In this document: piece by piece, positions 42,616 to 64,000 of the stretch
Layout: each line of letters begins with the position of its first letter
Position numbering within the stretch: position 1 is the stretch's first letter
Assembly: GCF_001186125.1 (NCBI RefSeq)
Contig: NW_014040153.1
Location: 1-64,000 of the forward strand
DNA from: Sphaeroforma arctica JP610
Taxonomy: Eukaryota
Direction: 5' to 3'
DNA length: 64,000 nt
Made by a program: the position numbers and the translations under genes
The notes under the pieces: generated by a model
The model's database searches: none
Seen by the model: only the letters and a program-made list of their open reading frames with translations
What the model was told of the DNA's origin: nothing

Positions 42616-42740
42616 CTCTGATCTCACCACCTCTGATCTCACCACCTCTGATCTCACCACCTCTGATCTCACCACCTCTGATCTCACCACCTCTGATCTC
42701 ACCACCTCTGATCTCACCACCTCTGATCTCACCACCTTTG
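42616..42740 (+). repeat. 15-bp tandem array CTCTGATCTCACCAC (~8 units) in the copia 5' leader
   Basis: Directly visible; about 4 units in copy 2 at 58277-58350. Confidence 0.9.
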
Positions 42741-42791
42741 ATCCTCTGATATCACCATATCTGCTCCTCCAATTCCTTCTCACACATCACC

Positions 42792-45656
42792 ATGAGTCAA
42801 CTTCCGCCCACGGGCCAAACCCCTATCACTACCTTTTCGTCTTTTGAGGGCGCCCAACGTTTCGAACGTGACTTCTTCTCAACACTCCAGCCATACACCA
42901 ATATCTCCCACGCCAATCATCACATCCAGCTTACCCGCACCATTCTATCTGCTGTTCTTGACACCAACGACAACCCTCACGTCAACAACACCGCCATATA
43001 CTTAGGTACACACGCTGCATTCTCTGAACTCGATGCCATATCCGCTATCACTGACCTCAACAACTCTCACAGGGCCAACACTGATGCACAATCCGACCTC
43101 GCCCGTATTCGACGTGACCGCGCCAACTTATCCACTAATCTCGACACCATCCGCAATGCATCTGCCAAACATTCTGACTCCATTGCTGCTCTCAACGCCG
43201 ATATTGCACGCCTTCGTCACGAGCGCCATACAATCCTCACCGAATGTAACACTGCTAATACTGCCCGCGATTTAGCTCGAGCTGACCACGACCAACACAC
43301 CATCGAACCCAACTCTCTAGCTAATGACCTCGATCACATCCGCAACGAACGAGGCACGCTCATCACTGAGCGCGATCAGCTTGTCACCGAACTTGATTGC
43401 ATTTGCTCCGAACGAGCTACCCTCATCACTGAACGCACTCAGGCGCAATCTAATTACAATGACATCGTCCTCGAACGTGATAACGTTCATCGAGATCTTA
43501 CCCGCATACAAGACATCAATACCAACACAACCACCGAACACACCACATTGCAAAACGACCTCGCCCGTATCCGTCATGAACGTGACACATACTTCGAGGA
43601 ATGTAAAAATGCCCAATTCAAACTCATTCAAGCACAGGAACAATCCACTACATCCCCTGACACTCACCTTGAAGCTACCCACGCCGCACTCCGTAGAACT
43701 CCCGCCCTTGCTTATTGCGCACTGACCGCAACGCACAACGTGCCAACCTCATCCAACAACAACACGAACATGCACGACTTCTACAGGAGGCCCTCACCGA
43801 AAACGAAGACCTCACCACTGCCGCCACACAGCTTCATGACAAACTCGCCACCCTTTAAGCGGAAATTGCTGCCTCTGATCCCCATAGCCTCCGTCAACAG
43901 CTACAAGTAGCCCAAAGAAAGATTCTTAAGCTTGAACAATGCTCCCCATCTACCCGCTTGTCAACCCCGCCCCAAAATCGCTCAGACTCTCCTCTCCTTG
44001 GCACTCCCCGCCACGACTCCCATCAAATATCCAACATCCGTGACGTTCGCATCAGCACCGGCATACCCCTCAAGTATTTCAGTAGTCATCCATTTCACCA
44101 ACTGGCATCGTCAACTCAAACATATCCTTAAGAAACACAACGTCCTTCACATTCTGCGCCCTGCCTCCACTGCCGACTCATCCGAAACGACCGTTGGCAC
44201 CAACTTACTTCGACCGAGACCCCCACGCATTCTATCGCCGCCTTTGTGACGACTTCAACTCCATCACCATCGGCCACATATGGGAACTCCTCGTTCAACT
44301 CATCACCCTCCCCAAGCAACCCTCCCTAAATGACAGCATTACCAAAGTCAACCTCCTTTGGGATCAGCTCAAAGGCCACCATGCTGACACAGCCGAACTT
44401 TCTAATGTGTACAGCCTACTGCAGTCTCTTCCTGGCGGATTCGACATCATCGCCCAGAACAGTGTGGGTACAACTGATCACATATACACCCTTGACACCA
44501 TTATTACTAAAATACGCAATTACTCCACCAATAGCAAATCCATTTTAAGTACCAGCAGCATCTATGGCGTCGCCAGTGTCTCCTACCACACCCCTGCCCC
44601 TACCCCTACCTAACGTCCCCAACGTGTCCCACTCGGTAAAGACCCCTCCAGCAACTGCTTAGCTTGCCAGAAGCCTGGCCATGGCGCCTATGACTGTCCT
44701 TCCACCAACTGTCGCCGCTGCTTGGACTCCTCCCACACCGGTTCCCAATATACTCTCCCAGGTCCCCTCAAGTGCAACTACTGCCGCAATTACACTGCCA
44801 CCGCATGTCGCCGTTCGTGAAGCCACGGAATTTCTCACGCAGCCACATCTCCACCACCAGTCCCCCACCCACCCGACCCCATCATCGAACCGGTGCGCTA
44901 CCATGTGAACACCTTTATACTCCGTGCCGAACCCAACCACCAACCTGTCAACGCCACTGCTCTTATCGAATCCGGCGCCGACATTTCAATCGTCACCTTC
45001 GCTGACGCACTTCTCCACGTCGAACATTGTCAATTCGTCATTGAGCTCGCGGGCGGCTCCTTCGTCACCGCGCCTGCCCGTGGCACCATCAATGGCCTCG
45101 GCCCTGCCCTCGTCCTCCCCGACGCCAGCCAGCCTACCCTCTCTGTACGCAATATGCAACGCAACGGTTACACTTTCTCCTTTCCCAAAATCCCTACTCC
45201 CGACAGCCTCGCCCAATGCCTTATCACACACGATGGTACCACCGTCAAAGTCCTTGATGAATCTGCCGGGCGCTACAACCTGAATGCTTTCCAGGCTGAC
45301 AGTCTCCACATCCATCATGCCCGCTTTGGCCACCGATCCATCCGCACAACTAAAGCCATCGCCCATACCCACAACATCCCCATCCCTCCGCCGCTGACAT
45401 ACTACGACGACTACCAACTTCACCTCGCACTGTTTGACAAACACGTCGCACAGGTCTTCAGCCCCGTTGACATCGACATGTTCGCTACTAAGTACAACCA
45501 CCAAGTCCCTACCTACTGCATCCTTGACCACACAGACAAAGCCACTTCCCTTCACGACGCATACACACAGCACTGGCGCCAGTCCACCAAGCGCCTCTAT
45601 GGCAACCTTCCTTGGAAAGACTTCCCACACGGTAACGCCAAGTTCGAACGCGACCA
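42792..45656 (+). pseudogene. Copia gag (long coiled coil, CCHC knuckles) - aspartic protease - integrase N-terminal HH - DNA amino-methyltransferase domain; frameshifted
   Basis: CLACQKPGHGAYDC near 44656; ALIESGADISIV protease site; IHHARFGHRS at ~45310-45340; DIDMFATKYN...DAYTQHW...LYGNLPW at 45406-45656. Confidence 0.8.
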
Positions 45657-46383
45657 CGTAATACCCGGGCCTCCACATTAGACTCTATGTTATAAAAGTA
45701 CTCTTAAGCAGTACGAGGAACTTAAGTTTCCTAAATGGTTTTTAATGGTTTTATTAATTAATACCTTTTCCATTTTACATATCAAATATTTGGACGAGGC
45801 CATTAAAAGGCTCCAGTAAAATACCAAACATAAGAGTTGGTTTAGTTCTATTAATAGAACTATATTTACTTTCCAACTTTATTTATATCTGAATACTTCG
45901 GTAGCGAGATGCCTTAACCGAATATAGGTTTCTAGGGACTATTAACGTTACCTAGTTGATCCTCCGATCAGCCAACCAGATGTGCCAGTCTGATGAAGGC
46001 TAAGTCGGTAATTTCTGATAAGTGGCAAGTTATTGGTTAAGACAATAACTAAGGACATCAAGAGTATTTTTCTTTTCTTCTAAAGCTAGGATTTTATGAG
46101 TCTCTCGGATTCGCCCCAATGAAACATACCATAGTTTCTAATAGAGCGACAACGAAAAACTAAATAAAATCCCTTCGGCGAAAACAGTACTGAGAGGATT
46201 ATATATAGGCAATGTCTCAGCCTCACAATCCCTCAGAGTATTGCTGTTTTCACGAGGCATACCTAACTTTACTAAAAGTCTTATTTCGTTTATTTACTTT
46301 GATATTTTCACGATACTTAGAATTTACCTACGTGTTTATTTACTCTAAGGCGTTAATATCGCCGTAATAGACCGAATCTTACA
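45657..46383 (+). repeat. G1 5' LTR
   Basis: Aligns along its length with 53058-53813; TATATATA at 46200. Confidence 0.9.
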
Positions 46384-46481
46384 CATTTTAAAGTTAGCAA
46401 AGGTATTAATTACTTAGACTACTTAAGCGTTAAGGTAGATTAACTACCACACAAAAAATCTAGTAGTCATAAGTTAAGATT

Positions 46482-49400
46482 ATGACCAAGAAAGACAATA
46501 CTCCTTTTAAAAAGCGTAGAGCTGAAAAGAAGAAGATGGAGAGAGAAGCCGCTAGCGCTGCCGCAGAAGCAACCGCTGCCGCTGCTAAGAAGTGATACAA
46601 GGGACACGTCTCAAGACGCCCCAACCCATTCGTCTGACAAAATTCAGAAAGAAAAGTTCACAATTGTAAGGGAGTCCCCAATTATAAGGGACAAGGACAA
46701 ATCTCAGAAGGAACCTATAATGGAACCAGAGGAAGAGGCAAGCTCAAGTGGCAACCCCGAATCTACGTCTAAGACTACTAAGCTAACGCGCATAAGTAAG
46801 TTAGATACTGAAAACACTGATCTTAAGAATAAGTTAGCTACCCTTAAGAAAGACTTGACTGTTGAACATGTAGATCGATTGTAAACATCAGGAAAACATA
46901 CACAGGACTTACCGCCACTTTTACCCAATTGGGATGACAAACGTCGGAAACCAGTTAAGACTGGGTATGTTATCCAAACGCATGAATCACCCAAGATTAT
47001 AATACCAACCACTATCCGAGGAACAGCGCACCGAAAGGCCTCGACTATGGCCTTTACAAGGGGTAATAAACACCCCCGTAGACGTGTTAACGAAGTTGAA
47101 TTTAATCGCTTCGATCGCACAGCACTACATCAACTCGCAGCGGATTTTCGCTCTGACGAGGTGACCGAACTTAACAAATCGGTCGACGATTATACCATTA
47201 AAATGGAAATCGCCCACGATGCGCATCATGCTGAGGATGTATCATATTTTGCTAATATGATAGCGATTAAGCAAACGCGCATCGATCAGCTACTTCAGGC
47301 CCAACGTGGACAAGACTACAAGGATAACCAGAAGTACAAAGGACAGATCAGTCGACTTAAGTAGAACTGGGATGCCAACAGTAAGCAAGTCGAGTTTATA
47401 AACAGCCATGACCTCGACACGCTAACCCGTACGCTTAATGCGTTTACGGTCATGCTGGAGACGAATGATATCGCTCTCCAGCAAAGGATATCTGCTTTAA
47501 TGCAGACGTTTGACCCTACAGGTACAAGTTATTTGATCCTGCAGCGACACCAACATGAGCTAGACACTTGTCGTGACTGGCCAGCTGTATGTTGGTTGGC
47601 TACATCCTTGTTAAGTAAGGACATGCGTAACCCAGGACTGAGTTCAATTTTAACTGAACCAGTTGAGAACACGCCCATTCAGAGATATATTCTGAAGCTA
47701 GATGCTGACCTGAAACGTCCAGATATAACAAAGGACAAGGCACGGTGATGGTACGAGTCCCTGGTTATGCACGTGTTCTGTAAAAACATAGGAAATAACG
47801 ACCGTGAGAGCCTGTACACCGAGTTGCGACGTAAACACGCGACTGAGGCTCGAGACAAGGGACATGAAACAAAGTTTCATCTATCCCGACTTACGTGGGA
47901 ACAGTTTTATGATACTGTATCCACCCTTTTCCCCGCACACCGAGTAGCATCGAAGGGAAAAGTGGCTGTTAAGAAGCCGCGGGAGCACACCGATCACGGA
48001 TACGTATCCAGGTAGACCTCTAACGAGAGACCCCAACATACACGTGCTCGCGACTCCACTCTATCCACGCGACCCAATAAACGGGCACGCGCGGAGGCGA
48101 GGGACAAGGAACCTCCATTTAAAGAGATTAAGAAATGTGCCGATGCACAGTGTGGGTATGACATGTACCAAATAACCCCTAACGGATATTGGAATGGTAG
48201 ACATGCATCCATCTGTACACACTTTCTTATTAAGTGCGACAAGTGTGAGAAGACAAATGGCTATCACACTAAGTCTTGTGACAAAGAGCCCAACATTAAG
48301 GTGGAGTGAAGGTACTACCAGGTACAATCGTTACACAGATAATACAACGACTCTTTAGATGAGCATGTAATAATCCCTGTATACTGCAATGGAAATAAAA
48401 TCCTTGCGTTGATTGATCCTGGTTCAGAAATTTCATGTATATCCGATCGCTTTGCATTAATGAAAGATATCGAAAGGAGAACACAAACAACTCACCTCAT
48501 TTTAGTTGATGATAAAACTTCTAAGTGTGATACCATGGCCACATATGTTAAAATTTCCCTGGCCGATGATAGGATCATCACTACCCAAGCTGTAATAGTT
48601 AAGATGTCACAGAAGTACGACAATATAGTCGGAATGAGCGATTTACTCACTCTAGGTATAACCGTAGCTGGTCTACCAAATAACATAGATCCATTAAAGG
48701 ATCAGTCAGACAATAACTGTCTGAATTCATATAAGCCCCCGTCATACACAGTCAAGGCATTAACACCTGACTTTGCGAACAAAATCATGGATCTGATTCT
48801 AGTAAATAAGAAGATAAAGATCACAGATTGAGCAAAATTACGTTTTAACGACGGGTATGTCAGCCTTGACTTAACCAAGGTGGACTTTACACAGTTAAAG
48901 TGTCCCTCAAGGAACTATGTATCCTGGAGACACGAGGCTGTGGTAATAGAACAAGTTGAGAAATGGCTAGCAGATGGAGTTTTTGGCACTGCTAGCCGTA
49001 GACCAACATAACTCTGACGGATCGTTTAAGAAAGTCAGGGTATATTTAAATATGAGTCCAATAAAAATTATATTGCCGACTCATAGCTTTCACTTACCTC
49101 GTATTATCGAGCTACTGCGAAGGGTGGAAGGTGCTACAGTATTTACAACTATAGACCTTACACAAGGAAACCATCAAATGCAGGTATATGAACCACATCG
49201 TAAATACTTTAGTTTTACGTGGAAAGGTGAACAATACAGGTTCAGAGGTACACCTTTCGGGTTACACTCTTTACCAGCATTCTTCCAACAAGTAATGGAA
49301 GAAATGTTTGCAGACTTGCCTAACTTGCAAGTTTACATAGATGACATAGTCATCTTTTCCAAAACTAATGGTGAACACGCCGCATTAGTCAGACGAGTCC

Positions 49401-52400
49401 TTTAGAGACTCAACGAGCAAAACTTCAAGATTAACGAGAAGAAATATCACTTCGCTATGAGCGAAATACAGCTCTTAGGCTACCGATTATCTGGGGAAGG
49501 TATTAAAATCGACCCCGGTAAGGTAGCACACCTGTTATATTGGCGAACACCAACTACATGAAGAGATGTTAACAGCATGTGTGGGTTTGTAAACTTCTTT
49601 TCAGATGAAGCACCACACTTAGCTGACTACCTTAAACCTTTTGGACACTTAAGATGTCATAAAGGCAAACTAGGATACTTGTGGACTAAAGAGTGTGATG
49701 ACGCATTTAAAGCCCTCAAACACGCAGTCCAGCAAGCACCTGTTGTACAAGGACCAGTCGATGGCGTGCCGTTTGAAATAGCAACGGACGCCTCCGACTT
49801 AGCCTTAGGAGAGGAGTATTATATCAGGTTATAGATAACAAACCCAGATATATACAATTCTTTGGTCGAGCAATGAATGCTTCACAGTTGAATTACCCAA
49901 CAGTTAAACAAGAGCTATTAGCCACAGTGGCAGCTCTAACACACTTCCGATATTACTTATACAGAACAGCATTTACGCTGATGTGTGATCAGAAATCTCT
50001 TCAATATATGAAAGAGATGAACCCCGACTCACAATTACTAAGTCGCTGGCATGATACAATATCAAAGTTTCATTTTGATATAAAACATCTGCCAGGAATA
50101 CATAACCATTTACCGGATATGTTATCACGCTTCGTACCGGACTCTAATAAATCCGTACGTGAGTCACTCGCCACTGACTAGAAATATAATCCCAGGTGGT
50201 TTAAACTGGCTCAAAAGATATTTGGGCCACATACCATAGATATGTTTGCTGCACATCATAATGCACAACTATCCAATTACAGGACTTTAAATCATCCTTT
50301 GGGAGACACCTTTCAAATAGACCTCTCCAAACATAATGTGTGGGCTAATCCACAATGGCAGTTAATTGCCCAGCTATTAAATTATATTCATATACCTAAA
50401 GCTACTATCACGTTGTGTTGCCCATTATGGAGTAAAGATCCATGGCTTAATAAATTGATNNNNNNNNNNNNNNNNNNNNNNNNNNNNNNNNNNNNNNNNN
50501 NNNNNNNNNNNNNNNNNNNNNNNNNNNNNNNNNNNNNNNNNNNNNNNNNNNNNNNNNNNNNNNNNNNNNNNNNNNNNNNNNNNNNNNNNNNNNNNNNNNN
50601 NNNNNNNNNNNNNNNNNNNNNNNNNNNNNNNNNNNNNNNNNNNNNNNNNNNNNNNNNNNNNNNNNNNNNNNNNNNNNNNNNNNNNNNNNNNNNNNNNNNN
50701 NNNNNNNNNNNNNNNNNNNNNNNNNNNNNNNNNNNNNNNNNNNNNNNNNNNNNNNNNNNNNNNNNNNNNNNNNNNNNNNNNNNNNNNNNNNNNNNNNNNN
50801 NNNNNNNNNNNNNNNNNNNNNNNNNNNNNNNNNNNNNNNNNATACTATAATATGTCGTATAGGTCCCATTGGAACAACCAAATGGACCCCTTCTGAGACC
50901 TTCCTTAACAAGGTCAAAGAATCTGATATTCCACTCTCTACCCAATTGAACGCTAAGCAGTTCAAAAGCAATACAGCACTTGAAGTCTGCGCACAAAAAA
51001 ATACAATCTACTAATGACACTACTGATAAGAAGCGTCAGTCTCTAGCTAGGACTCTGATTAATAACATACAGTCCAAGCCCGAGGTCTTTCAAACTCTAT
51101 TTCTAAAGGGATTAATGAAAGACAATCCTGAAGCGTATACACGTATAATGCGACTACTTAATAAGTCAGGTGTATCTAACGCACATGAGCGCACTTATGA
51201 CACTCATGCGAAAGCAGGACATGAGTCTGGAAACACTACAGACTTGGAGACCACGCAAGTAGATTCTCAACACCCTACCTTTATTCTGGAGGAGCAGAAT
51301 GATGAAAACATTCTTGCTTGGCTGACGCAAAACCATAAGCTGAAGCACCAGAACGTAGTAGACGCACTTAAAGATGCGAAGCGAAATGGGATCGCGCACC
51401 CTATGCTGACAACTTTAGTTGACAGAGTATATCAGTCATGTACAGACTGTGATCTCAATCAGATCAAGCGCTATGGGTTCGCACCGCTTAAGAGTGTGAC
51501 TGAAGATGTTCAATGGCGCAGGGTCATCATTGATCTGACTGACCTGCCCACGTCCGAACACGCAGACGACCTTTACGTATGCCACTTCTTTGATGTGGCG
51601 TCACGGTTTATTTTGCTCTATCCATTAAAGGATAAGAATACGCAGACCGTGGCAGAATTATGTTGCCAAGTCTTTGCTGACCACGGGTGGCCAGGTATTA
51701 TGTTCACTGATAACGGTAGTGAGTTCTGCGATGACGTAATGGAAACGCTAGTACTCGTATCAGGCATATGCAATAAGAGAGGTGTGCCATATAAGTTGCA
51801 AACGCAAGGCGCGAATGAAACGCGCCATAGAAGATTTAAGTACATCTTGCGTACTGCATTGACGGATGATGCAGATGATTGGCCGTACTACCTTAAGTGG
51901 GTACAAACACAGATGAACGAATGTGCTGATCCGGTTACAGGAACTACAACCACTCACTATTTTCGTGGCACATATAGTGAGTTACAATTACCCTTTAACA
52001 AGGACGAACCTGATCACCATGAGTTACCATGGTTAGAGAAGGTACAACGTACTTATAACGTTGTATATCCTTGCTTGCGAGAAATACGCAATATAGCCTT
52101 ATTGAAAAGGCAAAAGCGTTGGAACACTACCAAGAAGATAGCAGAGTATCAGGTCGGTGACAGAGTTAACATCCGTCAACGTAATCCCGATGCTACTGTA
52201 TTATCATCTAAATGGATAGGTCCATATATAATCTCTGTAGCAGACACTAAAAGTGGAATGTACGAGGTAAATAACCCCGATGGTTCTAGTGCGCTTCATA
52301 TAGGCACAAGTCGTATTCCGACTACAGAGATTATACTCGCAAGAAGACATGACTCTAATGCCCCTCTTGATCGTTCTTAATTTAAAGACATTATATGGAG

Positions 52401-52712
52401 AACGGATAAGGGAGGCTATACATACTATCGTACACGCTTTATAGACGGTACAATAGCTGAGTTAACTTCAGATGCGTTCGATAATCAAGACTATTTAAAA
52501 GCCTTTAATCGAAGAGATTATACTCGCAAGAAGACATGACTCTAATGCCCCTCTTGATCGTTCGGAATTTAAAGACAGTATATGGAGAACGGATAAGGGA
52601 GGCTATACATACTATCGTACACGCTTTATAGACGGTACAATAGCTGAGTTGACTTCAGATGCTTTCGATAATCAAGACTGTTTAAAAGCCTTTAATCGAA
52701 AATGGCCTGCAT
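46482..52712 (+). pseudogene. G1 gag-pol with stops and frameshifts
   Basis: Cys/His knuckle CDKCEKTNGYHTKSC; protease ALIDPGSEIS; RT IDLTQGNHQ, PFGL, YIDDIVIFS; RNase H TDASDLALG, ELLA, DQKSL, NHLPDMLSR; MTase from 50176; integrase H..H/CTDC, IIDL, FTDNGSEF, GANE. Confidence 0.88.
52326..52699 (+). repeat. 187-bp tandem duplication of the integrase C-terminal region
   Basis: AGAGATTATACTCGCAAGAAGACATG... at 52326 and 52513. Confidence 0.9.
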
Positions 52713-53057
52713 AAGTCACAAGCTGAAAAAGATAGCATGTTTCCATCGTCTGAAGGAACGGAAGTTAAAACGTATCCGCCTACAGCATTTATCCCGAGCT
52801 TTAATGCTCATCCTTCATATGTGTTTAAGACACTGAAGCGTAAGAAACGTCCAGTCGACCACCACGGACCTACTGGACCAAAGCCCAAAACTCACAGGGT
52901 AACCGAGAACGTTTAACTTCTCCGCCTGAGAAACATTAATTATATGTTATGCTACTTAAATGTTTCGACCCGTCTTTTTCCTTTCTCGCTTTTTGACCCA
53001 TAATCAGCTTGAGTGAGCAACTTGCTTCTCACGGGTCTCAAAGCTGGGTGAGGGCTG

Positions 53058-53813
53058 TGTAATAAGCCGGGCCTCCACATTAGACTCTATGTTATAAACG
53101 TACTCTTAAGCAGTACGTAAATTATAAACGTACTCTTAATAGTACGAGGAACTCAAGTTTCCTAACTGTACTCTTAATAGTACGAGGAACTTAAGTTTCC
53201 TAAAATGGTTTTTAATGGTTTAATTAATTAATACCTTTTCCATTTTATATATCAGATATTTGGACGAGGCCATTAAAAGGCCCCAGCAAAATACCAAACA
53301 TAAGAGTTGGTCTAGTTCTATTAATAGAACCATATTTACTTTCCATCTTTATTTATATCTGAATACTTCGGTAGCGAGATGGCTCAACCGAATATAGGTT
53401 TCTAGGGACTATGTTACCTAGTTGATCCTCCGATCAGCCAACTAGATGTGCCAGTCTGATGAAGGCTAAGTCGGTAATTCTTGATAAGTGGCAAGTCAAT
53501 AACTAAGGACATCAAGAGTATTTTTTCTTCTTCTAAAGAAAACCCCAATGAAACATACCATAGTTTCTAATAGAGCGACAACGAAACACTAAATAAAAAC
53601 CCTTCGGCGGAAACAGTACTGAGAGAAATATATATAGGCAATATCTCAGCCTCATAATCCCTCATAGTATTGCTGTTTTCACGAGGCATACCTAACTTTA
53701 CTAAAAGTCTCGTTTCGTTTATTTGCTTTGATATTTTTTACGATACTTTGAACTTACCTACTCGTTTATTTACTCTATGGCGTTAATATCTCCTTAATAG
53801 ACCGAATCTTACA
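53058..53813 (+). repeat. G1 3' LTR, with small internal duplications near its 5' end
   Basis: TGTAATA...CTTACA; homologous to the 5' LTR. Confidence 0.9.
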
Positions 53814-54700
53814 AAGACTCCAGCCGACGTTGAACGCTTCAAAGCACAACTTCTTTCGGAATTCGACTGCTCTGTCCTCGGCAAACCCACCTGGCTTCCC
53901 GGCTGTCGCATTATCACTAACGTTGATTCTACTAGCATCGTCCGAACCTCATACATTAATGAGGCCCTCGAGCACTTAGATATCCCCACCGCTCATCCAG
54001 TCAACACCCCCCTTCCGACTCCTTTTACTACCCATACCGCGAACTCGTCGGCACCCTTCACTACCTCTTTATCCTAGCGCGCATCGATATCACCATCGCC
54101 GTCAACAATCTCTCACGTTTCATTTTCAACCCTATCGAAGACCACTGGCTCGCTGCCTGTCGCGTCCTCCGCTATCTCCGAACCAGACCCACGCTTGGCC
54201 TCGAGTACAGCAAAACACCCCAACCGCTCTCCACTGACGCCTACGCTGATTCCGACTATGCCAGCTGCTTCACTACCCGTCGTTCCACCACCGGTTACGT
54301 CATTCGCGTATGTAGCACACAAGTGATTTGGAAAGTAAACGCCAAAAACTGTCAGCACTAGCACTGCTGAAGCCGAATACTTTACTGCCAGTGAAGCCGC
54401 TAAACACATACAGTGGCGCCGCAACTTCTTAACTGAACTTGGCTTTACCCCCGATGCCCCCACTGATATCCATAGCGATAACCAATCCGCCGTACATGTC
54501 ATCCCCAACTCGGGCACTCCTAAGCAGCTGAAGCACGTCGTGTGTTCGCGTTCACCATATTCGTGACCTCCAGGACCAAGGTGTCACCGCCACCAAATAC
54601 GTTAACTCTGCCGATAACATCGCAGACACCTTGACTAAGAGCCTTCCTCGACCCACCCACTCTAAACATACATCTAACACACTCACCGCCATCCCCGACC
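53814..54700 (+). pseudogene. Copia RT C-terminus and RNase H remnant
   Basis: DVERFKAQLLSEFDCSVLGKPTW, YRELVGTLHYL, YADSDYA..RRSTTGYV, STAEAEY, DNQSA, NIADTLTKSL. Confidence 0.85.
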
Positions 54701-55547
54701 CTGATCAACCGTCTCTTGTTGCAACACTAGCACATTCGTTCAATAACAACCATACACACATTACCAACACAACATCGTCCATACCTTCAGGAGAGCTCCG
54801 CCCGATCGATGCTCACCGCCATCCGCCCTCTGCTTTGATCCATCCTCCACCCTCCTGTCTATATCTTCACTACTACCCATCTAGACACCAGCCCTACTTA
54901 CTCTAGACCCACTATCGTACCTATATACATACGCACATAACGTGCACAACACCCTACTTACTCTAGACCCACTATCCGTAACATCGCTACCCTATACTAC
55001 ACCCACGTACCTATACACATACGCACACAACGTGCACAACACCCGACTGGTGACCACCGCCAAGACTCCTCCCCCTTCTACCCTCTGATTTGATCCATCC
55101 TCCTCCCTCCTGGCTATATCTTCACTACTATCCATCTAGACACCCGTCCTACTTACTCTAGACCCACTATGCGTAACATCGCTACCCTATACTACACCCA
55201 CGTACCTATACCCAGACGCACACAACGTGCACAACACCCGACTGGTGACTACCACCAATACTCCTCCCCCTTCTACTTTGTCCTCTCAGTTCACGCTCGC
55301 CCCCAACGCCTGCGGCCCCAGGCGCCATCACGAAACTTCTAATATTTATCCGATTCGCTGCCACCACTTAATGAAGCCCCAGTCCATTGCCCCACCACCC
55401 TTTTTTGTTTTCATTTAACAAATATTCCAGCCTCAATGCAGTCTGAGGAGAGCAAGTCTATATGTTGCTACCAGTACCCTAGTAGAGTATCCAACACATA
55501 TGCAATTATGTATACACACTGTCCTTTCGCTTCCAAATTCAGGAGAG

Positions 55548-55730
55548 TGTTGAGACGAATTTATACGACTCAAATCCTAAAACCCCAATAAGCCCAAAGT
55601 ATATTACGGTTCATATTCTGGCCGAATAATTGTAATAATATCTTCAAAGAGCACATGATAATTATTATACTATATACCCAATATGTAATATGATAATGAA
55701 GTTACTCCGTTAAGCAAATGTATATTTCAA
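55548..55730 (+). repeat. Copia 3' LTR preceded by the purine tract AGGAGAG
   Basis: Starts TGTTGAGACGAATTTAT, identical to the start of the copy 2 LTR; homologous to the 5' LTR. Confidence 0.82.
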
Positions 55731-56095
55731 GTAGCCTGATCTCAGTTCCATAATCAGTAGTTCTGCCTGAACCTATCTTGTAAAATGCCTTTGCTAGTGA
55801 CGAGCTCCTCATTGATTCTACGGGTTCAGGTCGTACCTCAGAAACGAATATTGCCGGTATTATTGTTGCCCGGGTCTCGGGTCTCTTCGGAGACCGTGGT
55901 GTCAAGAGTGGAATCTTAAATTTATCCACATTGTTTTAGAAGTTTTTGATGATGTTCACTTTGTTGTAATCTGTACCTATTCGACATATTATAGTATGTC
56001 GCCAGGGCACCATTTGAACTGTTCAGGTACAGATTGGCTCGTAACGAACCATTAGCAAAGTATCTAAAATAAATATTTACAGTCTATGACTTTCT

Positions 56096-56776
56096 CTGAC
56101 AAAATTGTTTCAATTTTCAATTTAAGAGCCTTCGGTTTTGTGATGATTTATTAAAGGGTTAAGAAGAGGGGGATCGTCTCGAGTATTAATTGTTGTCAAA
56201 AGATATCCTTTTCAAACTGGTCATTAGTTTTAATGTCTACATCGTAGCTCGCGTGGTCGGCATTACTTCTTTGTAGAAACATACCAGAATAGTGGATCAT
56301 AAATTCATTTTCTGGTTCTATCATTTTGTTGAACACCCGCGACATAACCGTGTTAACACAACGTCTCCAGATTATTGACAAGCTGTGGGTTTTCACGACC
56401 ACCACTCTATTTAATACCAGGTTTTAGGGGTTTAGGGTTTAGGGTTTAGGTACCTGACAAAATCGTTTAATTTTCAATTTAAGAGCTTTCAGCTTTGTAG
56501 TAATTTATCAAAGTGTTAAGAGAGGGATTGTCTCCGAGTATTAATTGTTGTCAAAGGATACCTTTTTCAGACTGGTCATAATAGTTTCAATTTCTAGCTC
56601 GTAGCTAGCGTGGTCGGTATTGCTTCTTTGTAGACACATACCAGAATAGTATATCATAAATTAATTTTCTGGTTCTATCGTTCTGTTGAACACCCGCGAC
56701 ATAACCGCGTGAACACAACGTCTCTAGATTATTGACGAGCTTTGGGTTTTCACGATCACCACACTATTTCATACCA
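56096..56776. repeat. Diverged ~323-bp direct duplication (56096-56419 and 56454-56776) separated by (TTTAGGG)n
   Basis: Both units start CTGACAAAAT and end ATACCA; the spacer is GGTTTTAGGGGTTTAGGGTTTAGGGTTTAGG. Confidence 0.85.
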
Positions 56777-57416
56777 TATGACAGAGCACCATCATCGGAA
56801 AGTCGTTTAAGTATCCTTTGTAGTGTACCATCTTAGACAGGTAAACGTGTCTTGTTCACTGGTCGCAAAAATATGAGATATTTGCAGTTGCTGTGCTCCT
56901 CCCTAATTTCCGGTATCACCCGTAAGCAATCTTGATCCGAATCGTCTTACTGCCATATGCATGATAATTTCTGAGACGCATTTCCATTAGACATTGTCTT
57001 ACACACGTTCGAAAAAATCTCTGGGCAAGCCTAATAGATTCCACTTGCCTCGGCTGCTCTCTCACATATTTCGCCTGTATCCGTTCATCCTTCCCGTTCA
57101 GCTCCTCAGCCATTCTTCCTTGGAAAGGCAACTTGGCACTTTTTGCTAATGGGGGACTGTCTCGATGCATTTCAATGCAATAATATTCAACATCACTCGC
57201 TGATTCCATCAGATCAGCCTCGAAACATAGTCCTATATTAGGCCCATGGTCGTCATCATAATCGCCGGCTGGTTTGCTTTCGCTGTCCAGATCATCTCCA
57301 GCTTCGGCTTTGATTTTTACCTTCTGATGTTGGCGATATCTCATCATCATTTCATCCACTTTATTTTGGAGTTGCTCTACATATTCTCAAAGGTGTCACC
57401 TTTGTATACGCTGGGT

Positions 57417-58689
57417 GCTTGAATGAGTTCAATGCGGGTCTCTTCACATTCCTCGAAGTATGTGTCACGTTCACGACGGATGCGGGCGAGGCTGTTTTGT
57501 AATGTGGTGTGTTCGGTGGTTGTGGTGGTATTGATGTCTTGTGTACGTGTAAGATTACGAGGAAGATTGTCACGTTCGAGGGCGATGTCATTGTAATTAG
57601 ATTGCGCCTGATTGCGTTCAGTGACGAGGGTAACTCGTTCGGAGTGAATGTGATCAAGTTCAGTGACAAGCTGGTCGCGTTCAGTGATGAGTGTGCCGCG
57701 TTCGTTGTGGATGCGATCGAGGTCATTAGCTAGAGAGTTGGGTTCGATGGTGTGTTGGTCGTGGTCAGCTCGAGCTAAATCGCGGGCAGTATTAGCGGTG
57801 TTACATTCGGTGAGGATTGTGTGGCGCTCGTGACGAAGGCGTACAATATCGGCGTTGAGAGCAGCAATGGAGTCAGAATGTTTGGCAGATGCATTGCGGA
57901 TGGTGTCGAGATCAGTAGATAAGTTGGCGCGGTCACGTCGAATACGGGCTTGTTGCGATCAGTGATAGCGGAAATGGCATCGAGTTCGGAGAATGCAGAG
58001 TGTGCACCTAAGTATATGGCGGTGTTGTTGATGTTAGGGTTGTCGTTGGTGTCAAGAATAGCAGATATAATGGTGCGGGTAAGCTGGATGTGATGATTGG
58101 CGTGGGAGATATTGGTGTATGGCTGGAGTGTTGAGAAGAAGTCACGTTCGAAACGTTGGGCGCCCTCAAAAGACGAAAAGGTAGTGATAGGGGTTTGGCC
58201 CGTGGGCGGAAGTTGACTCATGGTGATGTGTGAGAAGGAATTGGAGGAGCAGATATGGTGATATCAGAGGATCAAAGGTGGTGAGATCAGAGGTGGTGAG
58301 ATCAGAGGTGGTGAGATCAGAGGTGATGAGATCAGAGGTGGTGAGATCAGAGAGAAGGGGGGAATCAAAGGATCAGGGGTGGAAATCTAAGCGATGTACA
58401 TAGGGTATATAATAAAATATATTCGATATATCAGCTTATTCTGATAAACTGTAAAAACTGCAATAAAACTAAAAGAAACCTAAGTTCGTGTATTCCGACC
58501 ACAACCTGTTGGAACATGTATTTGCCTAACGAAGCAACTTTATTATCACTTCACATATTGGCTATATAGTATAACAATTACCATGTGCCTTTTTAAGATA
58601 TCATTACAACTACTCAGTCAAAATATAACCCGTAATTTATTTTGGGCTTGTAAAGTTTTGAGGGTGAGTCTTATAAATTCGTCTCAACA
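57417..58689 (-). mobile_element. Ty1/copia copy 2, truncated: 5' LTR (58507-58689), leader with 15-bp array, and the 5' part of gag
   Basis: Gag start MSQLPPTGQTPITTFSSFEGAQRFERDFF is identical to copy 1; LTR reads TGTTG...CAACA. Confidence 0.88.
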
Positions 58690-59212
58690 GTTGGGTGATC
58701 GGCCTTAATTTTACCTATTTCGTTATCTGACTGTGAAGTCGTTCGACTGAGCAAAGCGTAAACCGCATTCTCTGTGTCAATCGCATGCGACACCTTCATT
58801 TGTTGAACGTTTCGCAGGACGCTATTGATTAGCCTGCTATGTCGTTTTTGGCCCGCAGCAACTTGACGTCCGCCTAACTCCGTGCCCGAGTCTGGAGTGT
58901 CAATTCCGTACTTACCCGTCGTAGCACTAGTTTCACCTTCCACCTTCTCCAGGGAGCTTTTCAGCATCTTAAGACACATAAATGATTCGCCTCTATACGC
59001 TCTTGTAACGGTGTAGCCTTTGCCCTCTTTGGCACAGTCAATGTCGTAGTTGCAAATTCTTTTGCCTTCATAGTAAATGAAAGTACCTTTCATACTTCCT
59101 TCGTACAAGGGAAGGCTTTGTTCCTTTTTTTAAATTAACCCTGTAGATATCATTTTGGTCATGTGCTTTACCCTAATCAGTTGTATCCATATTGGATAAA
59201 CCAGGTTCAAAA

Positions 59213-61776
59213 TGTTGTCTCTAACAAAACCCTAATATTAAATAAACCGTAATATTAATTAAAAACTCTACTCGGGAACTTCCTGACTATAACACCCCCC
59301 CCCCCCCCAAGCTGAAGCGCTATAAGTGTACCCAATTCGAGAAATTGAAGGAATGTCCTGAAAAGGTGGTGTGCTAGCATTTAACCACAGAATCCCAGAG
59401 AGCTAAGGAATCGTTTATTTGTTCACCACACGGGCAGGTGACTAGAAGCAAGTAAAAGAAAATATGTATCTATAACGTATATAATAAGTTATATCTGGTC
59501 ACGACGGCGTTTACGTACGCGTGTCGGTGTGTCCGTCGAATGCCCAAGCAGTTTCTCATGTCGACACCCCCTCAAGCCAGCGTATAATGTATTCGAGTTT
59601 ACCCGTGTCGTCATTCGTCCTGTGTTTGATAACATGACGGAATGCGGAGCCCCCTTCTTGTCAGAGATGCCCATATCTATGTGTATGGTCATAGCTCTCA
59701 CCGTTACAGCTCGTAACACCATATGGACCAATAACGGTGGCCGTCTCTCTGGTTTCACCATCACTACTTCGTCTGTATCGAAGTGCACCAGACCATGGGG
59801 GTGAAGACGATCGAATGTCTTCATTAGCTTGTATACGGCTTGGTAATCTTGTGCAACGTGGGTGGAGTTGTGTACTGTAACTGAGGTCAAGTCGTTGAGC
59901 CCAAATGTCATTGGTAACCAGTTATTGCTCAGGTACATCGTCGGTTCAATCAGCAAACGGAACATGTCGGCGGCCGAAATATACGCTAAACGGAGCGCTC
60001 TTATGTCGTCGTGAGATACGTAGATTCTGGTGAGTATCGTAAAGAGTAGGCGTTTGTCCCAGGCCTGGAGTATCGCCTCGCAGTAGAAACGTATCGACCG
60101 TGTTATCTATTTGTACCGACGTTCAGTAGCGCCGAGAACTTGGGTTCGATAAAGTGGTGAGGCTTTATAAAGTATCCCAACCACTTTGACAAGTGGGGCC
60201 ACCAGTTGGTGAATGCTAGTCCTATATCCGTTTGCAGTCTGTGTAAGAAGCCATGTTCGCCAGATATCGCCTGTAACGTGCGAGCGGTCGTCTCCATGGA
60301 CATATCAGGTGTAGCACGTAAAACTGAGTACCCCGATGCAACGACTAACTCATGCAGAACAAATTTATCCTGTTGGATAGATGTTACCGGCATCGAAATG
60401 CAGTCGACCTGGAGATGTGATCCCAGAGGTACTGGGCGTCGAAGCTGATCACAGGATGAAACCTCTCGTCCGAAGAGTATTGTCCCAAGCGCTGCCAGCA
60501 TTGTCCTTTGATTTATGTAGCCAACTCAAATGCCCCGGGCCAGACATGTCCGTTCTATTGCAACTGTTGGCCTGTGTCCTATTCATGGTGTGCTTGTGTG
60601 AGCTGTGTTCGGCGCTGGTGTTCCGCTGGTGTTCCGTTAATAAAGGCCGGTTGTGCAACGTCGCTTGCTATCGCCACCGAAATCTCTCGTACGGCGTCCA
60701 TATATTGTTGGTATGGCATGCGACGAGGCTCTGCATATTCCAGACGTTGAGTAAAACTCTCCGTCAATCGGAAGACCGATGATGGTCCTACGTGTGCGAC
60801 TACTGTATGGCCCCATTGAATCTTGCCGCAAGGCTATTTTGCATATTTCAAGAAAGTGTGCGGGCTACGAGGCACCAACACTAGCTCTGCTTGTAGTATC
60901 GAAACCACGGTGCTCTTGAGGTCCACGGTAGGCACACCGTCGTAGTATTCCCGTCTGATATAATTTTCCGGAGCGTACGGTGTATCAATTTCCACGGTCG
61001 TTTATTCAACCGTCCACTAGGGCCCATTCATTATCAAACGCTTCTCTGTGAATGTTTTTTGGTCCAGAAGTGGACAAGCTGTGTATTATGTGGCGCTGCG
61101 AATACGTCTATATTATTATGGCCAAATATCCATTGTGCCTGTTCGAAGTGGCTTAGAAATAATTTTTAGCAACCTGCATAAAGGATTGCCGGTATATCTG
61201 TTTCAGCGGTGTTCATGTATCCGACTGAGCATGTCAGGTAGGGCGTTCTTCTCACCAAGAATATGTGAAATAGTGAAATTGAATGGCGCGATGATGTGAT
61301 GCCAATGCTGCATCATAGGGTTGAGCTTGAGCCGGCTGTTCATGTATACTAATGCCTTGTGATTGGTAAACATTATAAACCGCTGGCCGTGAAGGTATTC
61401 CCGGGAGTGTGTCCACCCATAGACTATTGCTAGAAGTTCCTTCATTGGTGTTGCGTAGTACCGGATTGAGCATCTTACTGAAGAACATGAGGTAGTGCTT
61501 CTTGCCTTCGACCCATTGGAATAATGCACCGTCTACCTCGTAATCTCTGGCGTCCGTTTCCAGGTTGAGTGGCATATCATCCACCGGAAAGTGGAGTGTT
61601 ACGGTATTGACGATAGCGTCTTCATTGCATTTCATGCGTCTGATCAACGCTGGACGCCGTGGGGAAAGCGGACGTTTGTTGGCATGCCGTTCGGCATCAA
61701 ACCTGCATCGTGAATCATCCAGGCACGGATGGAGCATGAATTCAAAGTGTGGATGGCCTAGATAGCCTAAAGACAT
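59213..61776 (-). mobile_element. Ty3/gypsy-type fragment G3: RT end - RNase H - MTase - integrase - PPT - putative short 3' LTR (59213-59294)
   Basis: LGYLGH; LETDARDY, KELLAIV, TNHKAL, NALPDMLSR; frameshifted IDVFAAPHN...PWKLIHRTLRKI; HLQVDCI...LQTD integrase core; G14 tract then TGTTA...CAACA. Confidence 0.8.
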
Positions 61777-64000
61777 GGGCGTGGGTCACAACAGTGTTAG
61801 GAAGCACTGGTCGAGCATGAAAAATCTCATCGTGGCGTGTGTGAAGCACAACGCTAAATTGAACATCAAGAAGTGTTGCTTTGGGATCTCAGATCGGCCG
61901 GTCATCGCGTTGGGGCGAGTGGTGGATGAGAACGGGTCGTACATTAGTGAGGATCGGATGGAATCCATCATGCGCATGCCGCCGCCCACGGATAAGGATC
62001 TCTTGGCCTAGTGGTATCACACGATTGGTTATTGGAGCCAATACATCCCTGACTACTCTAGGATCATGTCCCCTATCTCGAATCGGAAGAAAGAAGTACC
62101 CTTTATGTGGGATCGGACGCAGCAGGCAGTCTACGATCGGATTCGGGAGGAGGTGGCCAAGGAAGGGGTGTTGGTCGAGCCAGGATTCGAAGACAAACTG
62201 GAGATGTATTGCGATGCCTGTGACTCGGTAGGAGTAAGTGGGAGGTTGTTTGCTCGGCGCAAGGGTAAGCTATGCCGTGTGGGGTTCTGGTCTTCGAAGT
62301 TCAGCCCGGCGCAGTTGGGCTACCACATTACGGACAAGGAGGCTATAGCCATCGTGTATTGTCTTCATAAGTCCTGGAGGATTGTCAAGCGTTCGCGCCA
62401 CCCGCTGACGGTGTTCACGGGCCATGAGCCGTTGGTGCGTATGCTAGCGCAAGACCCCACGTCGTATGAGTCCACGGTTAGATATAGATATATGGCTAGA
62501 TACGCGCAGGTGCTGCGTGATTTCGACACTATCCTAAAGCATGTGCCGGGAGAATTGAATCCAGTGGCGGATGTGCAATCTCGGCTGGTATACCAAATTG
62601 ACCCAATCATGCGAGCGAGGCGTCTACCGGCGAAGGATAGAGCGCGTTGGGCTGAGCAAGCGGTGGTGAAGCCGGAGACAGAATCTTATGCAGTGAACAG
62701 GGCGCTCTTTGACAAGACCGGGGACAAGTTTGGTCCGTTTGACGCTGAAAGGTTCGCGCATCCAACGAATTATCGATGAAGCCGTACTACCAGCCTACCT
62801 TGGCTGGGGGTGTGTTTGCGTCGAGGACGTGGATGGGTCCACGTTAGTACTTTAACCCCAGGTGGTCAGACTTGGGCAAGGTTGTCACCAGGATTCGCAG
62901 GGACAAGGCTACGGTGACGATGGTCTGTCCGTATGCACCGGAGGCACGGTGGTTTATGGAAATGGTACCTCTGCTGTCAGCAGATCCTATGGTGATATAT
63001 CTCAAGTAGGGGATCTTCCTCCGACACGGGAATGAGCAGATGGATGCGTCAGGTTTTATTTCGCTGGTCTGCCATATGAGACATTACCGGGACCACAAGC
63101 TGCGTGGAGACTTCTGGGAGGAGTTGGAAGCTAAGCGGCCAGCTTGGGAGAAGCTGGCTGCTGCGGCAGTACTACGTGCGGAAGACGTAGTGTCCTGTAT
63201 GACACAGAGTGGTGTCGTAGGGGCGGTAGCGCATCCAAGTGGGAAATCGGTGCGTAGAGGAATGCCAGCGGAGGAGGCTGGTATTGAAACAACCCCATGT
63301 TAGTGCAGTGAATGCACTAATGTTTACCACTCAGTCTTTGCGGGCGGCTAAGGGTGTTCTGAATAAGTATCTGAAGCATGCGGAAGTATGGCTGGGAGGG
63401 GCATCTGCTAACCCTAGTGAGGGATCGCTGGGTGCGATGGCAGAAACTTGGCTGGAGTCAGCTGAGGTGAGCACGAGTGAGGGGTCGCTCGGTGCTATAT
63501 ACACTCGGAGTATGAGTGATAAGTCGCCGGTGCTTACGCGGCGTGCGCGCAAGGCAGCGGTGGTTGCGAACAGCCACCCGGTCTTGGAGGAAATGGACAT
63601 TGATAAATCACAGGGTGATACATCAGTGGAGGACCATCCGCGAGAGTGTGAGGAAGCACTCACCAAACAGCAGTTAGTCCAGTTAGAGCAGAATCCGGCG
63701 GATGGTGTGCCACTGGATGACGCGGAAGAGCCACCAGTGGATAAGCTGGGTGACAAGCTGTTGCGACAACGCTTGCGAAGCTTGAAGCGTTCTGTGTTTG
63801 GTGTGGAAGTGGGGGGGGTGATGTCTTCGAGCGTATCGTTAGGTACATGCCAGTGCCAAGAGGCTGGATGATCTGGTGCGCAGGCTATGGGGTTGGGCTG
63901 GCATGAAAAAGATGTATGATCATGTCCGGAAGAGCTGCAATGCGTGCCAGGCGTTCGCTGAGGAACTAGGCTTGGCGAAAGGCTTGCTGCTGCTGCCAGT
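61770..64000 (+). mobile_element. Ty3/gypsy-type fragment G2: RT C-terminal half - RNase H - MTase - spacer - integrase Zn finger; runs off the window
   Basis: KLNIKKCCFG; YCDACD, DKEAIAIV, TGHEPL, NPVADVQSR; FGPFDAERFAHPTN, YFNPRW, VCPYAPEARWF; DHVRKSCNACQ near 63920-63950. Confidence 0.8.

What the first reader, a model, noticed from the sequence alone, without database searches (positions are those of the whole stretch)
45406..63080. Four different integrase-type LTR retrotransposons (1 copia, 3 gypsy) each encode a Dam/DIRS-like DNA amino-methyltransferase inside pol
Seen in sequence: four divergent but collinear ~100-130 aa segments ('/' = frameshift, '*' = stop). Copia: YQLHLALFDK..FSPVDIDMFATKYN..DAYTQHW..LYGNLPW. 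G1: D*KYNPRWF..IFGPHTIDMFAAHHN..DTF..WANPQW..ATITLCCPLWSKDPW. G2: YAVNRALF..FGPFDAERFAHPTN/..TW..YFNPRW..KATVTMVCPYAPEARWF. G3: *KL..HF..IFGHNNIDVFAAPHN../EAFDNEW..*IN/PW..TTTVCLPWTSRAPWF. Established: this SAM-binding DxFA..N plus NPP[Y/F/W] motif IV pattern is that of the N6-adenine-type MT domain that follows RNase H in DIRS (tyrosine recombinase) retroelements; canonical copia and gypsy pol lacks it. Inference: LTR elements of both superfamilies in this genome acquired a 6mA (or 4mC) writer, perhaps to methylate their own cDNA, imitate a host 'active/self' mark or escape silencing. I am not aware of this architecture being described, but I cannot confirm novelty.
Basis: partly seen in the sequence, partly recalled or inferred. 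Interest (0 to 1): 0.93.

Follow-up and report, generated by a model that had tools for sequence, protein, structure and literature searches.

The report
Copia retrotransposon carrying Dam-like methyltransferase domain
Four broken jumping genes here each carry a domain related to adenine DNA methyltransferases; three are gypsy elements of a kind that a 2026 preprint describes, but the fourth is a copia element, a class that preprint's text does not mention, and the domain likely helps new copies gain the host's 'active' adenine mark.

Summary
All four segments are real DIRS-type Dam-like domains, far above chance. The host is likely Sphaeroforma, an ichthyosporean.

The three gypsy elements (RNase H–Dam–integrase) match the 'DAM-LTRs' of bioRxiv 10.64898/2026.05.21.726589, which covers S. 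arctica. This scan also noted gypsy-Dam elements in other genomes.

The copia case is the new part. The domain sits in one open frame behind the copia protease and GAG-pre-integrase motif. It shares the copia's codon bias, and contigs bridge the junction in 4 of 4 runs laid. Three diverged S. arctica relatives keep the GAG-pre–Dam junction, one followed by an integrase core, and a fourth is a whole domain. The preprint's main text never mentions copia (supplements unseen), and no paper or scan note I searched describes a copia Dam.

Likely role: marking the element's own cDNA with 6mA, which the host then maintains. Activity is unshown: the motif is non-canonical, the preprint's E. coli assay was negative, and my fold model was too poor to test.

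The parts
42359..42525 (+). Copia 5' LTR (TG...CA, about 165 bp), followed at 42526-42538 by a primer-binding-site-like stretch
   Evidence: 140 of 162 positions identical to 55564-55730. The resemblance to a copia primer site is recalled, not tested (one search found no paper).
42750..44817 (+). Copia gag, broken: long coiled-coil N-part, copia-type gag core, CCHC knuckle
   Evidence: Retrotran_gag_2 E=0.08 (44086-44610), zf-CCHC E=0.021, coiled-coil families for 42750-43907; all under the gathering score
44902..45399 (+). Copia protease (catalytic Asp replaced by Glu) and GAG-pre-integrase His motif, in one open frame with the Dam domain
   Evidence: ORF 44821-45681; 55/89 and 39/63 identical to P0002; relatives P0002 and P0004 hit gag_pre-integrs weakly, E=0.064 and 0.16
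45400..45657 (+). Copia Dam-like domain, N-terminal half up to just past motif IV, cut by the G1 insertion
   Evidence: 32.6-44.9 bits against Dam profiles; hhalign 97.6%, E=4.5e-12 between copia-clade and DIRS/G1 alignments; third-position C 0.59 as in the copia protease, 0.57
45657..46383 (+). G1 (gypsy) 5' LTR
   Evidence: 650 of 686 ungapped positions identical to the 3' LTR; no target-site duplication
48343..50178 (+). G1 protease, RT and RNase H
   Evidence: Asp_protease_2 E=1e-5; RVT_1 E=5.5e-17, RT_RNaseH E=2e-20
50176..50459 (+). G1 Dam-like domain, directly behind RNase H; end lost in an N gap
   Evidence: Pfam Dam E=1.7e-4; PHROG 111 DNA methyltransferase E=0.05; 48.5 bits
50950..52380 (+). 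G1 spacer and integrase
   Evidence: rve E=3.6e-8
53058..53813 (+). G1 3' LTR
53815..54690 (+). Copia RT C-terminal end and RNase H, frameshifted; integrase core and most of RT are missing between 45657 and 53815
   Evidence: RVT_2 E=0.0015, profile positions 180-242 of 244; same C-rich composition as the 5' part; RNase H motifs read (labels recalled)
55548..55732 (+). Copia 3' LTR, preceded by a short purine tract (55541-55547)
59500..60860 (-). G3 (gypsy) spacer, integrase remains and a chromodomain-like tail
   Evidence: read; Chromo E=0.046 for 59514-59660, no rve hit for the piece scanned
60881..61171 (-). G3 Dam-like domain, two frameshifts and stops
   Evidence: Pfam Dam E=0.032; 19.6 bits
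61203..61780 (-). G3 RT end and RNase H
   Evidence: RT_RNaseH E=2e-12
61802..62680 (+). G2 (gypsy) RT end and RNase H
   Evidence: RT_RNaseH_2 E=4.7e-16
62681..63060 (+). G2 Dam-like domain, one frameshift and stops; a long spacer and the start of integrase follow up to the window end
   Evidence: 28.1 bits; 73% identical over 154 columns to S. arctica SARC_09610 (P0001)

Best explanation
These are four decayed LTR retrotransposon copies, three gypsy and one copia, likely from the ichthyosporean Sphaeroforma, each with a DIRS-type Dam-like domain built into pol that likely methylates adenines on the element's own reverse transcript so that new insertions would be kept in the host's active 6mA state. 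Shown: in the gypsy elements the domain lies between RNase H and integrase, as in the published DAM-LTRs. Shown: in the copia it lies directly behind the GAG-pre-integrase His motif and, in relative P0004, ahead of the integrase core; it is a family trait kept across subfamilies only 36-60% identical. Inferred: this is a separate capture, because copia and gypsy place integrase and RNase H in opposite order and the domain sits in a different slot. Inferred: the domain is made and packaged with Pol, and in the copia probably stays on the mature integrase and so travels with the cDNA. Inferred, following the preprint's model: it binds SAM through the DxF motif, methylates adenine N6 on cDNA or the RNA:DNA hybrid, and host AMT1 maintains the mark after integration. 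The window's copies are dead. G1 sits in the copia without a target-site duplication, most simply because recombination between two G1 LTRs removed the rest of the Dam domain, the integrase core and most of RT.
For: Homology. Native to the copia: same frame; each Dam segment fits its own element's dinucleotide model best, 4 of 4 except G3, where G1's model is 1.7 bits ahead; contigs with 0 differences bridge the junction at 45400 in 4 of 4 runs laid, and a second copy with 47 differences over 346 bases spans it in 3 of 4 runs (these runs may include the source sample). Family trait: 4 of 7 hits among 1.84 billion representatives are S. arctica proteins of this clade. P0002 has protease, GAG-pre and Dam; P0003 GAG-pre and Dam; P0004 protease end, GAG-pre, Dam and rve (E=0.0011); P0005 a whole Dam without context. 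P0004's stretch after motif IV fits the Dam C-half of P0005 in a shifted frame at 37 of 56 positions (0 of 2000 shuffles reach it, max 25), so that locus held a whole domain ahead of integrase. Constraint: against P0004 the Dam half is 32/69 identical, protease 11/34, linker plus GAG-pre 15/58. Role: the preprint reports more 6mA and expression on DAM-LTR insertions in S. arctica and A. whisleri, and DAM-LTRs mostly in AMT1 species, 9 of 13.
Against: No catalysis is shown. Motif IV departs from Asn-Pro-Pro in all four window copies and in relatives P0001, P0002 and P0005, so the change is family-wide. The preprint's expression of DIRS and DAM-LTR domains in dam-minus E. coli gave no 6mA. Iyer et al. 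call DIRS1 MTase domains likely inactive. The preprint's 6mA data are a correlation and concern DAM-LTR families of unstated make-up, not this copia. No intact copia with Dam, integrase and RT in one piece was seen: the order is pieced together from this window (RT tail beyond the G1 insertion) and one gene model whose DNA I could not read. The window's copia segment has no Pfam Dam hit of its own. The tree does not resolve the donor.
Confidence: 0.45

Rival explanations
1. Same anatomy, but the domain is catalytically dead or nearly so and is kept as a nucleic-acid or SAM-binding module, for example to bind the template RNA or cDNA, to read or shield adenines, or to steer integration to 6mA-marked active chromatin.
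For: Family-wide departures from Asn-Pro-Pro; negative E. coli assay; Iyer et al.'s reading of DIRS1 domains; a reader or targeting role would also give the reported 6mA enrichment. Scan notes report motif-less versions in chytrid and Rozella gypsy elements (unchecked).
Against: The DxF motif, the motif-IV Asn and the aromatic three places on are kept in the copia clade wherever the sequence reaches that far in frame. Asn-Leu/Ile-Pro-aromatic motifs occur in active rRNA adenine methyltransferases of the KsgA/Erm kind (recalled, not tested).
Confidence: 0.3
2. The domain is active but on RNA, like its relative PCIF1/CAPAM: it puts m6A or cap m6Am on the element's genomic RNA to aid its stability, translation or packaging.
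For: Hit P0008 matches PCIF1_WW at E=5.2e-6; Iyer et al. place DIRS1 MTases with PCIF1; no DNA methylation in the E. coli assay.
Against: The preprint's tree places the eukaryotic clade with prokaryotic DNA Dams and finds DNA 6mA on insertions; the best Pfam family for G1 and the copia relatives is Dam.
Confidence: 0.15
3. The copia Dam is not part of a copia family: it is a scrap of a nested gypsy or DIRS element, or an assembly join, that happens to be in frame.
For: The window is a nest of broken elements; the segment ends at a G1 LTR; the copia's integrase is missing here; there is no target-site duplication around G1.
Against: Codon bias is that of the copia, third-position C 0.59 against 0.13 in G1's Dam; contigs bridge the junction and a second copy has it; three diverged S. 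arctica proteins have the same junction; the segment is 45-57% identical to P0002-P0005 but aligns with G1-G3 only over 31-41 residues.
Confidence: 0.05

Closest known systems
DAM-LTR retrotransposons, 'Ichthyosporean DAM-LTR lineage' (Fernandez-Moreno et al., bioRxiv 10.64898/2026.05.21.726589; whole main text read, supplements not seen)
   Same: DIRS-type Dam domain inside pol of an integrase-type LTR element; Ty3/gypsy organisation for G1-G3; same likely host (S. arctica is one of their three ichthyosporeans); same proposed role.
   Different: The text assigns DAM-LTRs to Ty3/Gypsy-like elements by an RVT_1 tree and has 0 occurrences of copia, Ty1, RVT2 or PF07727. Here one carrier is a copia, with the domain behind GAG-pre-integrase. 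Motif IV here is not the Asn-Pro-Pro they report. They say the ichthyosporean lineage lacks chromodomains; G3 has a weak chromo-like tail (E=0.046).
MT domain of DIRS1-like tyrosine-recombinase retrotransposons (PMC3266345 and PMC4738411, passages read)
   Same: Same domain family; in G1-G3 the same position right after RNase H.
   Different: These elements have direct LTRs and a DDE integrase (rve in G1 and P0004), and no tyrosine recombinase was seen; in the copia the domain is upstream of RT, not behind RNase H.
Retrotransposon-borne cytosine methyltransferases: SymbioLINE-Dnmt, SymbioDIRS-Dnmt3, KnitGypsy-Dnmt3 (PMC5890265, passages read)
   Same: A DNA methyltransferase domain recruited into a retrotransposon polyprotein more than once.
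   Different: C5-cytosine enzymes of an unrelated family. That paper says Symbiodinium copia lack a DNMT; PMC12344493 mentions DNMT3 in 'LTR Copia' in one sentence, again a cytosine enzyme.

Membership tests
DAM-LTR (preprint), for G1-G3 | Dam-family domain of the eukaryotic retrotransposon (DIRS-type) kind | tested here: met
   48.5, 28.1 and 19.6 bits to a DIRS-like profile, null at most 7.0. Pfam Dam E=1.7e-4 and 0.032 miss the preprint's 1e-5 cut-off in these broken copies.
DAM-LTR (preprint), for G1-G3 | Ty3/gypsy RT (RVT_1) and gypsy order protease-RT-RNase H-integrase | tested here: met
   G1: protease, RVT_1, RT_RNaseH, Dam, rve in that order. G2 and G3: RNase H then Dam then integrase remains; RT core absent, so met only in part.
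DAM-LTR (preprint), for G1-G3 | Asn-Pro-Pro catalytic triplet | tested here: not met
   G1 and G2 have Gln and Arg at the second Pro (Lys in P0001); G3 is frameshifted there. The preprint says 'almost all' sampled domains have the triplet.
DAM-LTR (preprint), ichthyosporean lineage | No chromodomain | tested here: inconclusive
   G3 tail Chromo E=0.046, under the gathering score; no hit for G1's two tail pieces
DAM-LTR (preprint), ichthyosporean lineage | Falls in that clade of the Dam tree | not testable with these tools
   The preprint's sequences are in supplements that were closed; my 10-row tree has no well-supported branch
DAM-LTR (preprint) | Raised 6mA and expression on insertions | not testable with these tools
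   No modification calls available; no run on record as RNA among the holders
DAM-LTR (preprint), for the copia element | Ty3/gypsy-type RT and order | tested here: not met
   Protease is followed by GAG-pre-integrase and Dam with no RT between; the RT tail matches RVT_2
Ty1/copia (Pseudoviridae) | Order gag-protease-GAG-pre-integrase-integrase-RT-RNase H | tested here: met
   Window: gag, protease, GAG-pre, Dam, [G1], RT end, RNase H between one LTR pair. P0004: protease end, GAG-pre, Dam, rve. Pieced from two loci; no single intact copy seen.
Ty1/copia (Pseudoviridae) | RVT_2-type RT, copia-type gag and GAG-pre-integrase | tested here: met
   RVT_2 E=0.0015, Retrotran_gag_2 E=0.08, gag_pre-integrs E=0.064 and 0.16 in P0002 and P0004: each weak and under the gathering score, all three copia-type, and no gypsy family hit
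Ty1/copia (Pseudoviridae) | Direct LTRs with primer site, purine tract and target-site duplication | tested here: inconclusive
   LTR pair 86% identical with a purine tract and a primer-site-like stretch; no duplication evident by eye
Ty1/copia (Pseudoviridae) | RT tree placement | not tested
   Only the last 63 profile positions of RT remain and no reference set was on hand
DIRS1-like elements | Tyrosine recombinase with inverted or split repeats instead of DDE integrase and direct LTRs | tested here: not met
   Direct LTRs on G1 and the copia; rve in G1 and P0004; no recombinase family among the frames scanned
N6-adenine methyltransferase (active enzyme) | Rossmann-type methyltransferase fold | tested here: inconclusive
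   Model of P0005 had mean pLDDT 42; no Foldseek match at E<=0.001; best Z 4.5, with none at 5 or more
N6-adenine methyltransferase (active enzyme) | Methyl transfer to adenine N6 | not testable with these tools
   Needs an assay; the preprint's assay on other members was negative

The most novel reading that the evidence does not exclude
A Ty1/copia lineage has captured an adenine methyltransferase on its own and built it into the N-terminal part of integrase, so that an active 6mA writer rides on the pre-integration complex and marks cDNA or target site at insertion. With the three gypsy families, both integrase-type LTR superfamilies of one 5mC-free genome would have converged on writing the host's active mark, and copia carriers would be a class that RVT_1-based screens pass over.
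Probability: 0.33. Interest if true: 0.78.

Novelty: new variant of a known kind. Interest (0 to 1): 0.55.

Why it matters
The gypsy part repeats a 2026 preprint. The copia part widens it: the Dam module has entered a second LTR superfamily, in a different slot of pol, in the same likely host where 6mA and expression data already exist. That makes the open question of what the DIRS-type MT domain does more testable. In one genome, copia with and without Dam and gypsy with and without Dam can be compared on existing Nanopore data, which separates a domain effect from a lineage effect. The position behind GAG-pre-integrase also suggests that the domain acts on the cDNA-integrase complex rather than with RT. 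Finally, some of the preprint's 46% 'orphan' Dam sequences may be copia-borne: their screen used RVT_1 and E<=1e-5, and the copia-clade gene models scored only E=1e-3 to 0.2 here.

Tried and rejected
Void through my slip: window:45401-... is off-frame for the copia segment, so (protein 2), and alignment A1 say nothing about it. In one search an 11-residue middle piece of G3 was off-frame; the tree was rebuilt.

No whole genome is held, so no genome-wide count of copies was made.

Word-indexed homolog search with the copia protease-GAG-pre-Dam frame, proteins of 441-2000 aa: 0 of 1523 candidates. With alignment A2: 1 of 1610.

Related loci: none in viral contigs or in metagenomes with the copia alignment. 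One DIRS-like fragment, L001, was found with P0007. So no copia-Dam outside S. arctica was found, which is weak evidence of absence.

ESM Atlas, right frame: nearest clusters were small phage hypothetical proteins (0.95), no Dam family; uninformative.

Solved structures by sequence: 0 hits for G1's Dam; 24 Chk1 kinase rows for profile A3 at E>=0.003, judged chance on one amphipathic helix. Phage genomes: one hit, E=0.9.

Structure: pLDDT 42. The fold lists hold several adenine methyltransferases (CAPAM Z 4.4, rmsd 5.9, 137 aligned; METTL16 4.3; RlmJ 4.2; E. coli Dam 3.9) tied with acetyltransferases (top Z 4.5), so I give them no weight.

Tree of 10 Dam rows: no starred branch; copia rows together at 65/61; neither 'three gypsy one clade' (p-AU 0.22) nor 'copia plus P0007' (0.18) rejected. 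P0003 (short), P0001 (C-half only) and P0006 (low-complexity repeat, dropped as a false hit) were left out.

No RNA holder listed. A closer look at reads past the G1 insertion point could not be had, so what follows the Dam half in uninterrupted copies of this very subfamily is unseen; one 309-base contig of run X16 goes on for about 160 bases past 45656.

Literature: searches listed no paper on an adenine methyltransferase in copia; most rows were seen as listings only. Subscription papers, Repbase/GyDB entries and the preprint's supplements were not searchable.

Full report
Observation. The four segments are in the sequence at the stated places. A profile of three DIRS-like Dam domains (P0007, P0008, P0009) run over all six frames of the window returned exactly these four loci: G1 48.5, copia 44.9, G2 28.1 and G3 19.6 bits. 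The best hit elsewhere was 2.9 bits and the best of 20 block-shuffled windows 7.0. Because P0007 and P0008 were found with the copia query, I built a second profile from G1, G2, G3 and P0009 only; it gave the copia segment 32.6 bits against at most 4.3 in 1000 shuffles. P0007 itself passes Pfam's Dam threshold (E=8.1e-7). Pfam alone sees G1 (E=1.7e-4) and G3 (E=0.032) but not G2 or the copia segment.

Host. All five named protein hits are Sphaeroforma arctica JP610 gene models, one 73% identical to G2. The host is therefore likely this ichthyosporean or a close relative. I did not test host genes for this.

Gypsy elements. G1 is near complete: LTRs at 45657-46383 and 53058-53813 (95% identical), protease, RVT_1, RNase H, Dam, then rve. 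G2 and G3 are 5'-truncated, with RNase H, Dam, a spacer and integrase remains. RNase H identity among the three is 26-41%, so they are three families. This is the architecture of the DAM-LTRs in bioRxiv 10.64898/2026.05.21.726589 (whole main text read). That paper claims the first report of Dam domains in non-DIRS LTR elements, defines five lineages including one in S. arctica, Abeoforma and Pirum, finds more 6mA and expression on their insertions, and saw no activity in E. coli. The gypsy part of the finding is therefore known. Notes from this scan report the same in other genomes (unchecked).

Copia element. An LTR pair at 42359-42525 and 55548-55732 (140 of 162 identical) encloses gag (Retrotran_gag_2 E=0.08; CCHC knuckle), one open frame with protease, GAG-pre-integrase His motif and the Dam N-half, then G1, then the RT end (RVT_2 E=0.0015) and RNase H. 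G1 has no target-site duplication and about the length of an integrase core plus most of RT is missing, which recombination between two G1 LTRs would explain (inference). Each copia-type family hit is weak, but all agree and no gypsy family hits these frames.

Is the Dam native to the copia? Four lines say yes. (1) Composition: third-position C is 0.59 in the segment, 0.57 in the copia protease and 0.13 in G1's Dam; a dinucleotide model of the copia fits it best. (2) Contigs with no differences bridge the junction at 45400 in 4 of 4 runs laid, and a second copy with 47 differences over 346 bases spans it in 3 of 4 (these runs may include the source sample). (3) phmmer against 1.84 billion representatives gave 7 hits: four S. 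arctica proteins of this clade, two DIRS-like proteins, and one low-complexity false hit that I dropped. P0002 (60% identical) has protease, GAG-pre and Dam; P0003 has GAG-pre and Dam; P0004 (36%) has the protease end, GAG-pre, Dam and an rve core (E=0.0011); P0005 is a whole Dam without context. The stretch of P0004 after motif IV fits P0005's C-half in a shifted frame at 37 of 56 positions, and 0 of 2000 shuffles reach that, so that locus held a whole domain ahead of integrase. (4) Against P0004 the Dam half is better kept (32/69) than protease (11/34) or linker plus GAG-pre (15/58); against P0002 all three are alike at 57-62%. What is missing is a single intact copy: the full order is pieced from this window and one gene model whose DNA I could not read.

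Origin. Copia and gypsy carry the domain in different slots, which argues for separate captures (inference). The copia segment is 45-57% identical to its four relatives, 42% over 73 residues to DIRS-like P0007 (selected by this query), and aligns with G1-G3 only over 31-41 residues. The 10-row tree resolves nothing: no starred branch, and neither alternative was rejected. The donor is open.

How it works. Most likely (0.45) the domain is made and packaged with Pol, binds SAM, and methylates adenines on cDNA or the RNA:DNA hybrid; host AMT1 then maintains the mark, and the new copy sits in permissive chromatin. The anatomy is shown; every chemical step is inferred, mostly from the preprint's correlation. 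The copia's slot behind GAG-pre suggests that the domain stays on integrase and travels with the cDNA. Against this: motif IV departs from Asn-Pro-Pro across whole families, the E. coli assay was negative, and Iyer et al. consider DIRS1 domains likely inactive (PMC4738411, two passages). A dead binding or targeting module (0.3) and an RNA methyltransferase like PCIF1 (0.15; P0008 hits PCIF1_WW) remain open. My structure model was too poor to help (pLDDT 42, best Z 4.5). Escape from 5mC silencing is unlikely, as S. arctica is reported to lack 5mC (PMC12344493, passage).

Novelty. The preprint's main text has no occurrence of copia, Ty1, RVT2, RVT-2, PF07727 or Pseudoviridae, and it classed elements by RVT_1. 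Eight paper searches listed no adenine methyltransferase in copia; I read passages of PMC5890265, PMC3266345, PMC12344493, PMC11673190 and PMC4738411 and only listings of the rest. The scan's notes hold copia elements with cytosine-methyltransferase-like domains between protease and integrase, but none with a Dam (unchecked). Verdict: a new variant of a known kind. Interest 0.55, down from 0.93 because three of the four elements and the proposed function are already in a preprint, and held there because a copia carrier in a host with 6mA data gives a natural control for an open question.

Noticed in passing
window 59514-59660 (-) and 52326-52699 (+): G3 ends in a chromodomain-like stretch (Chromo E=0.046). 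G1's integrase tail has a 187-bp tandem duplication that looks chromo-like by eye but has no Pfam hit. The preprint says ichthyosporean DAM-LTRs lack chromodomains.
   Followed up: partly
window 45390-45410 and P0002/P0003: No CxxC pair lies between the GAG-pre His motif and the Dam start; P0002 and P0003 have one Cys at the junction. The domain may have been inserted inside the integrase HHCC finger.
   Followed up: no
window 45657-46000: Summed contig depth over the G1 LTR is about a thousand times that over the copia's unique part in all four runs. It is no copy number, but G1's family looks very abundant.
   Followed up: no
window 57415-58673 (-): A second, truncated and inverted copy of the same copia's 5' end (LTR, 15-bp repeats, gag N-part), 79-97% alike.
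   Followed up: partly
window 42586-42765 and 42750-43910 (+): The copia leader holds nine 15-bp tandem repeats, and gag begins with a 386-codon frame rich in predicted coiled coil, unusually long for a copia gag (recalled).
   Followed up: no
window 63100-63870 (+), 50950-51330 (+), 60580-60860 (-): All three gypsy elements have a spacer of about 100-250 codons with no Pfam hit between Dam and the integrase zinc finger.
   Followed up: no
window 56424-56449: A short run of TTTAGGG telomere-like units between two 357-bp-spaced direct repeats.
   Followed up: no
window 1007-2086 (-) and 28833-29642 (-): Host genes: glutamine synthetase (Gln-synt_N and _C) and a glutamate synthase GXGXG domain.
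   Followed up: no
L001 1-1514: A metagenome fragment with overlapping RNase H-like, MT and recombinase-like frames, read by eye as a DIRS1-like element; used only as a reference row.
   Followed up: partly
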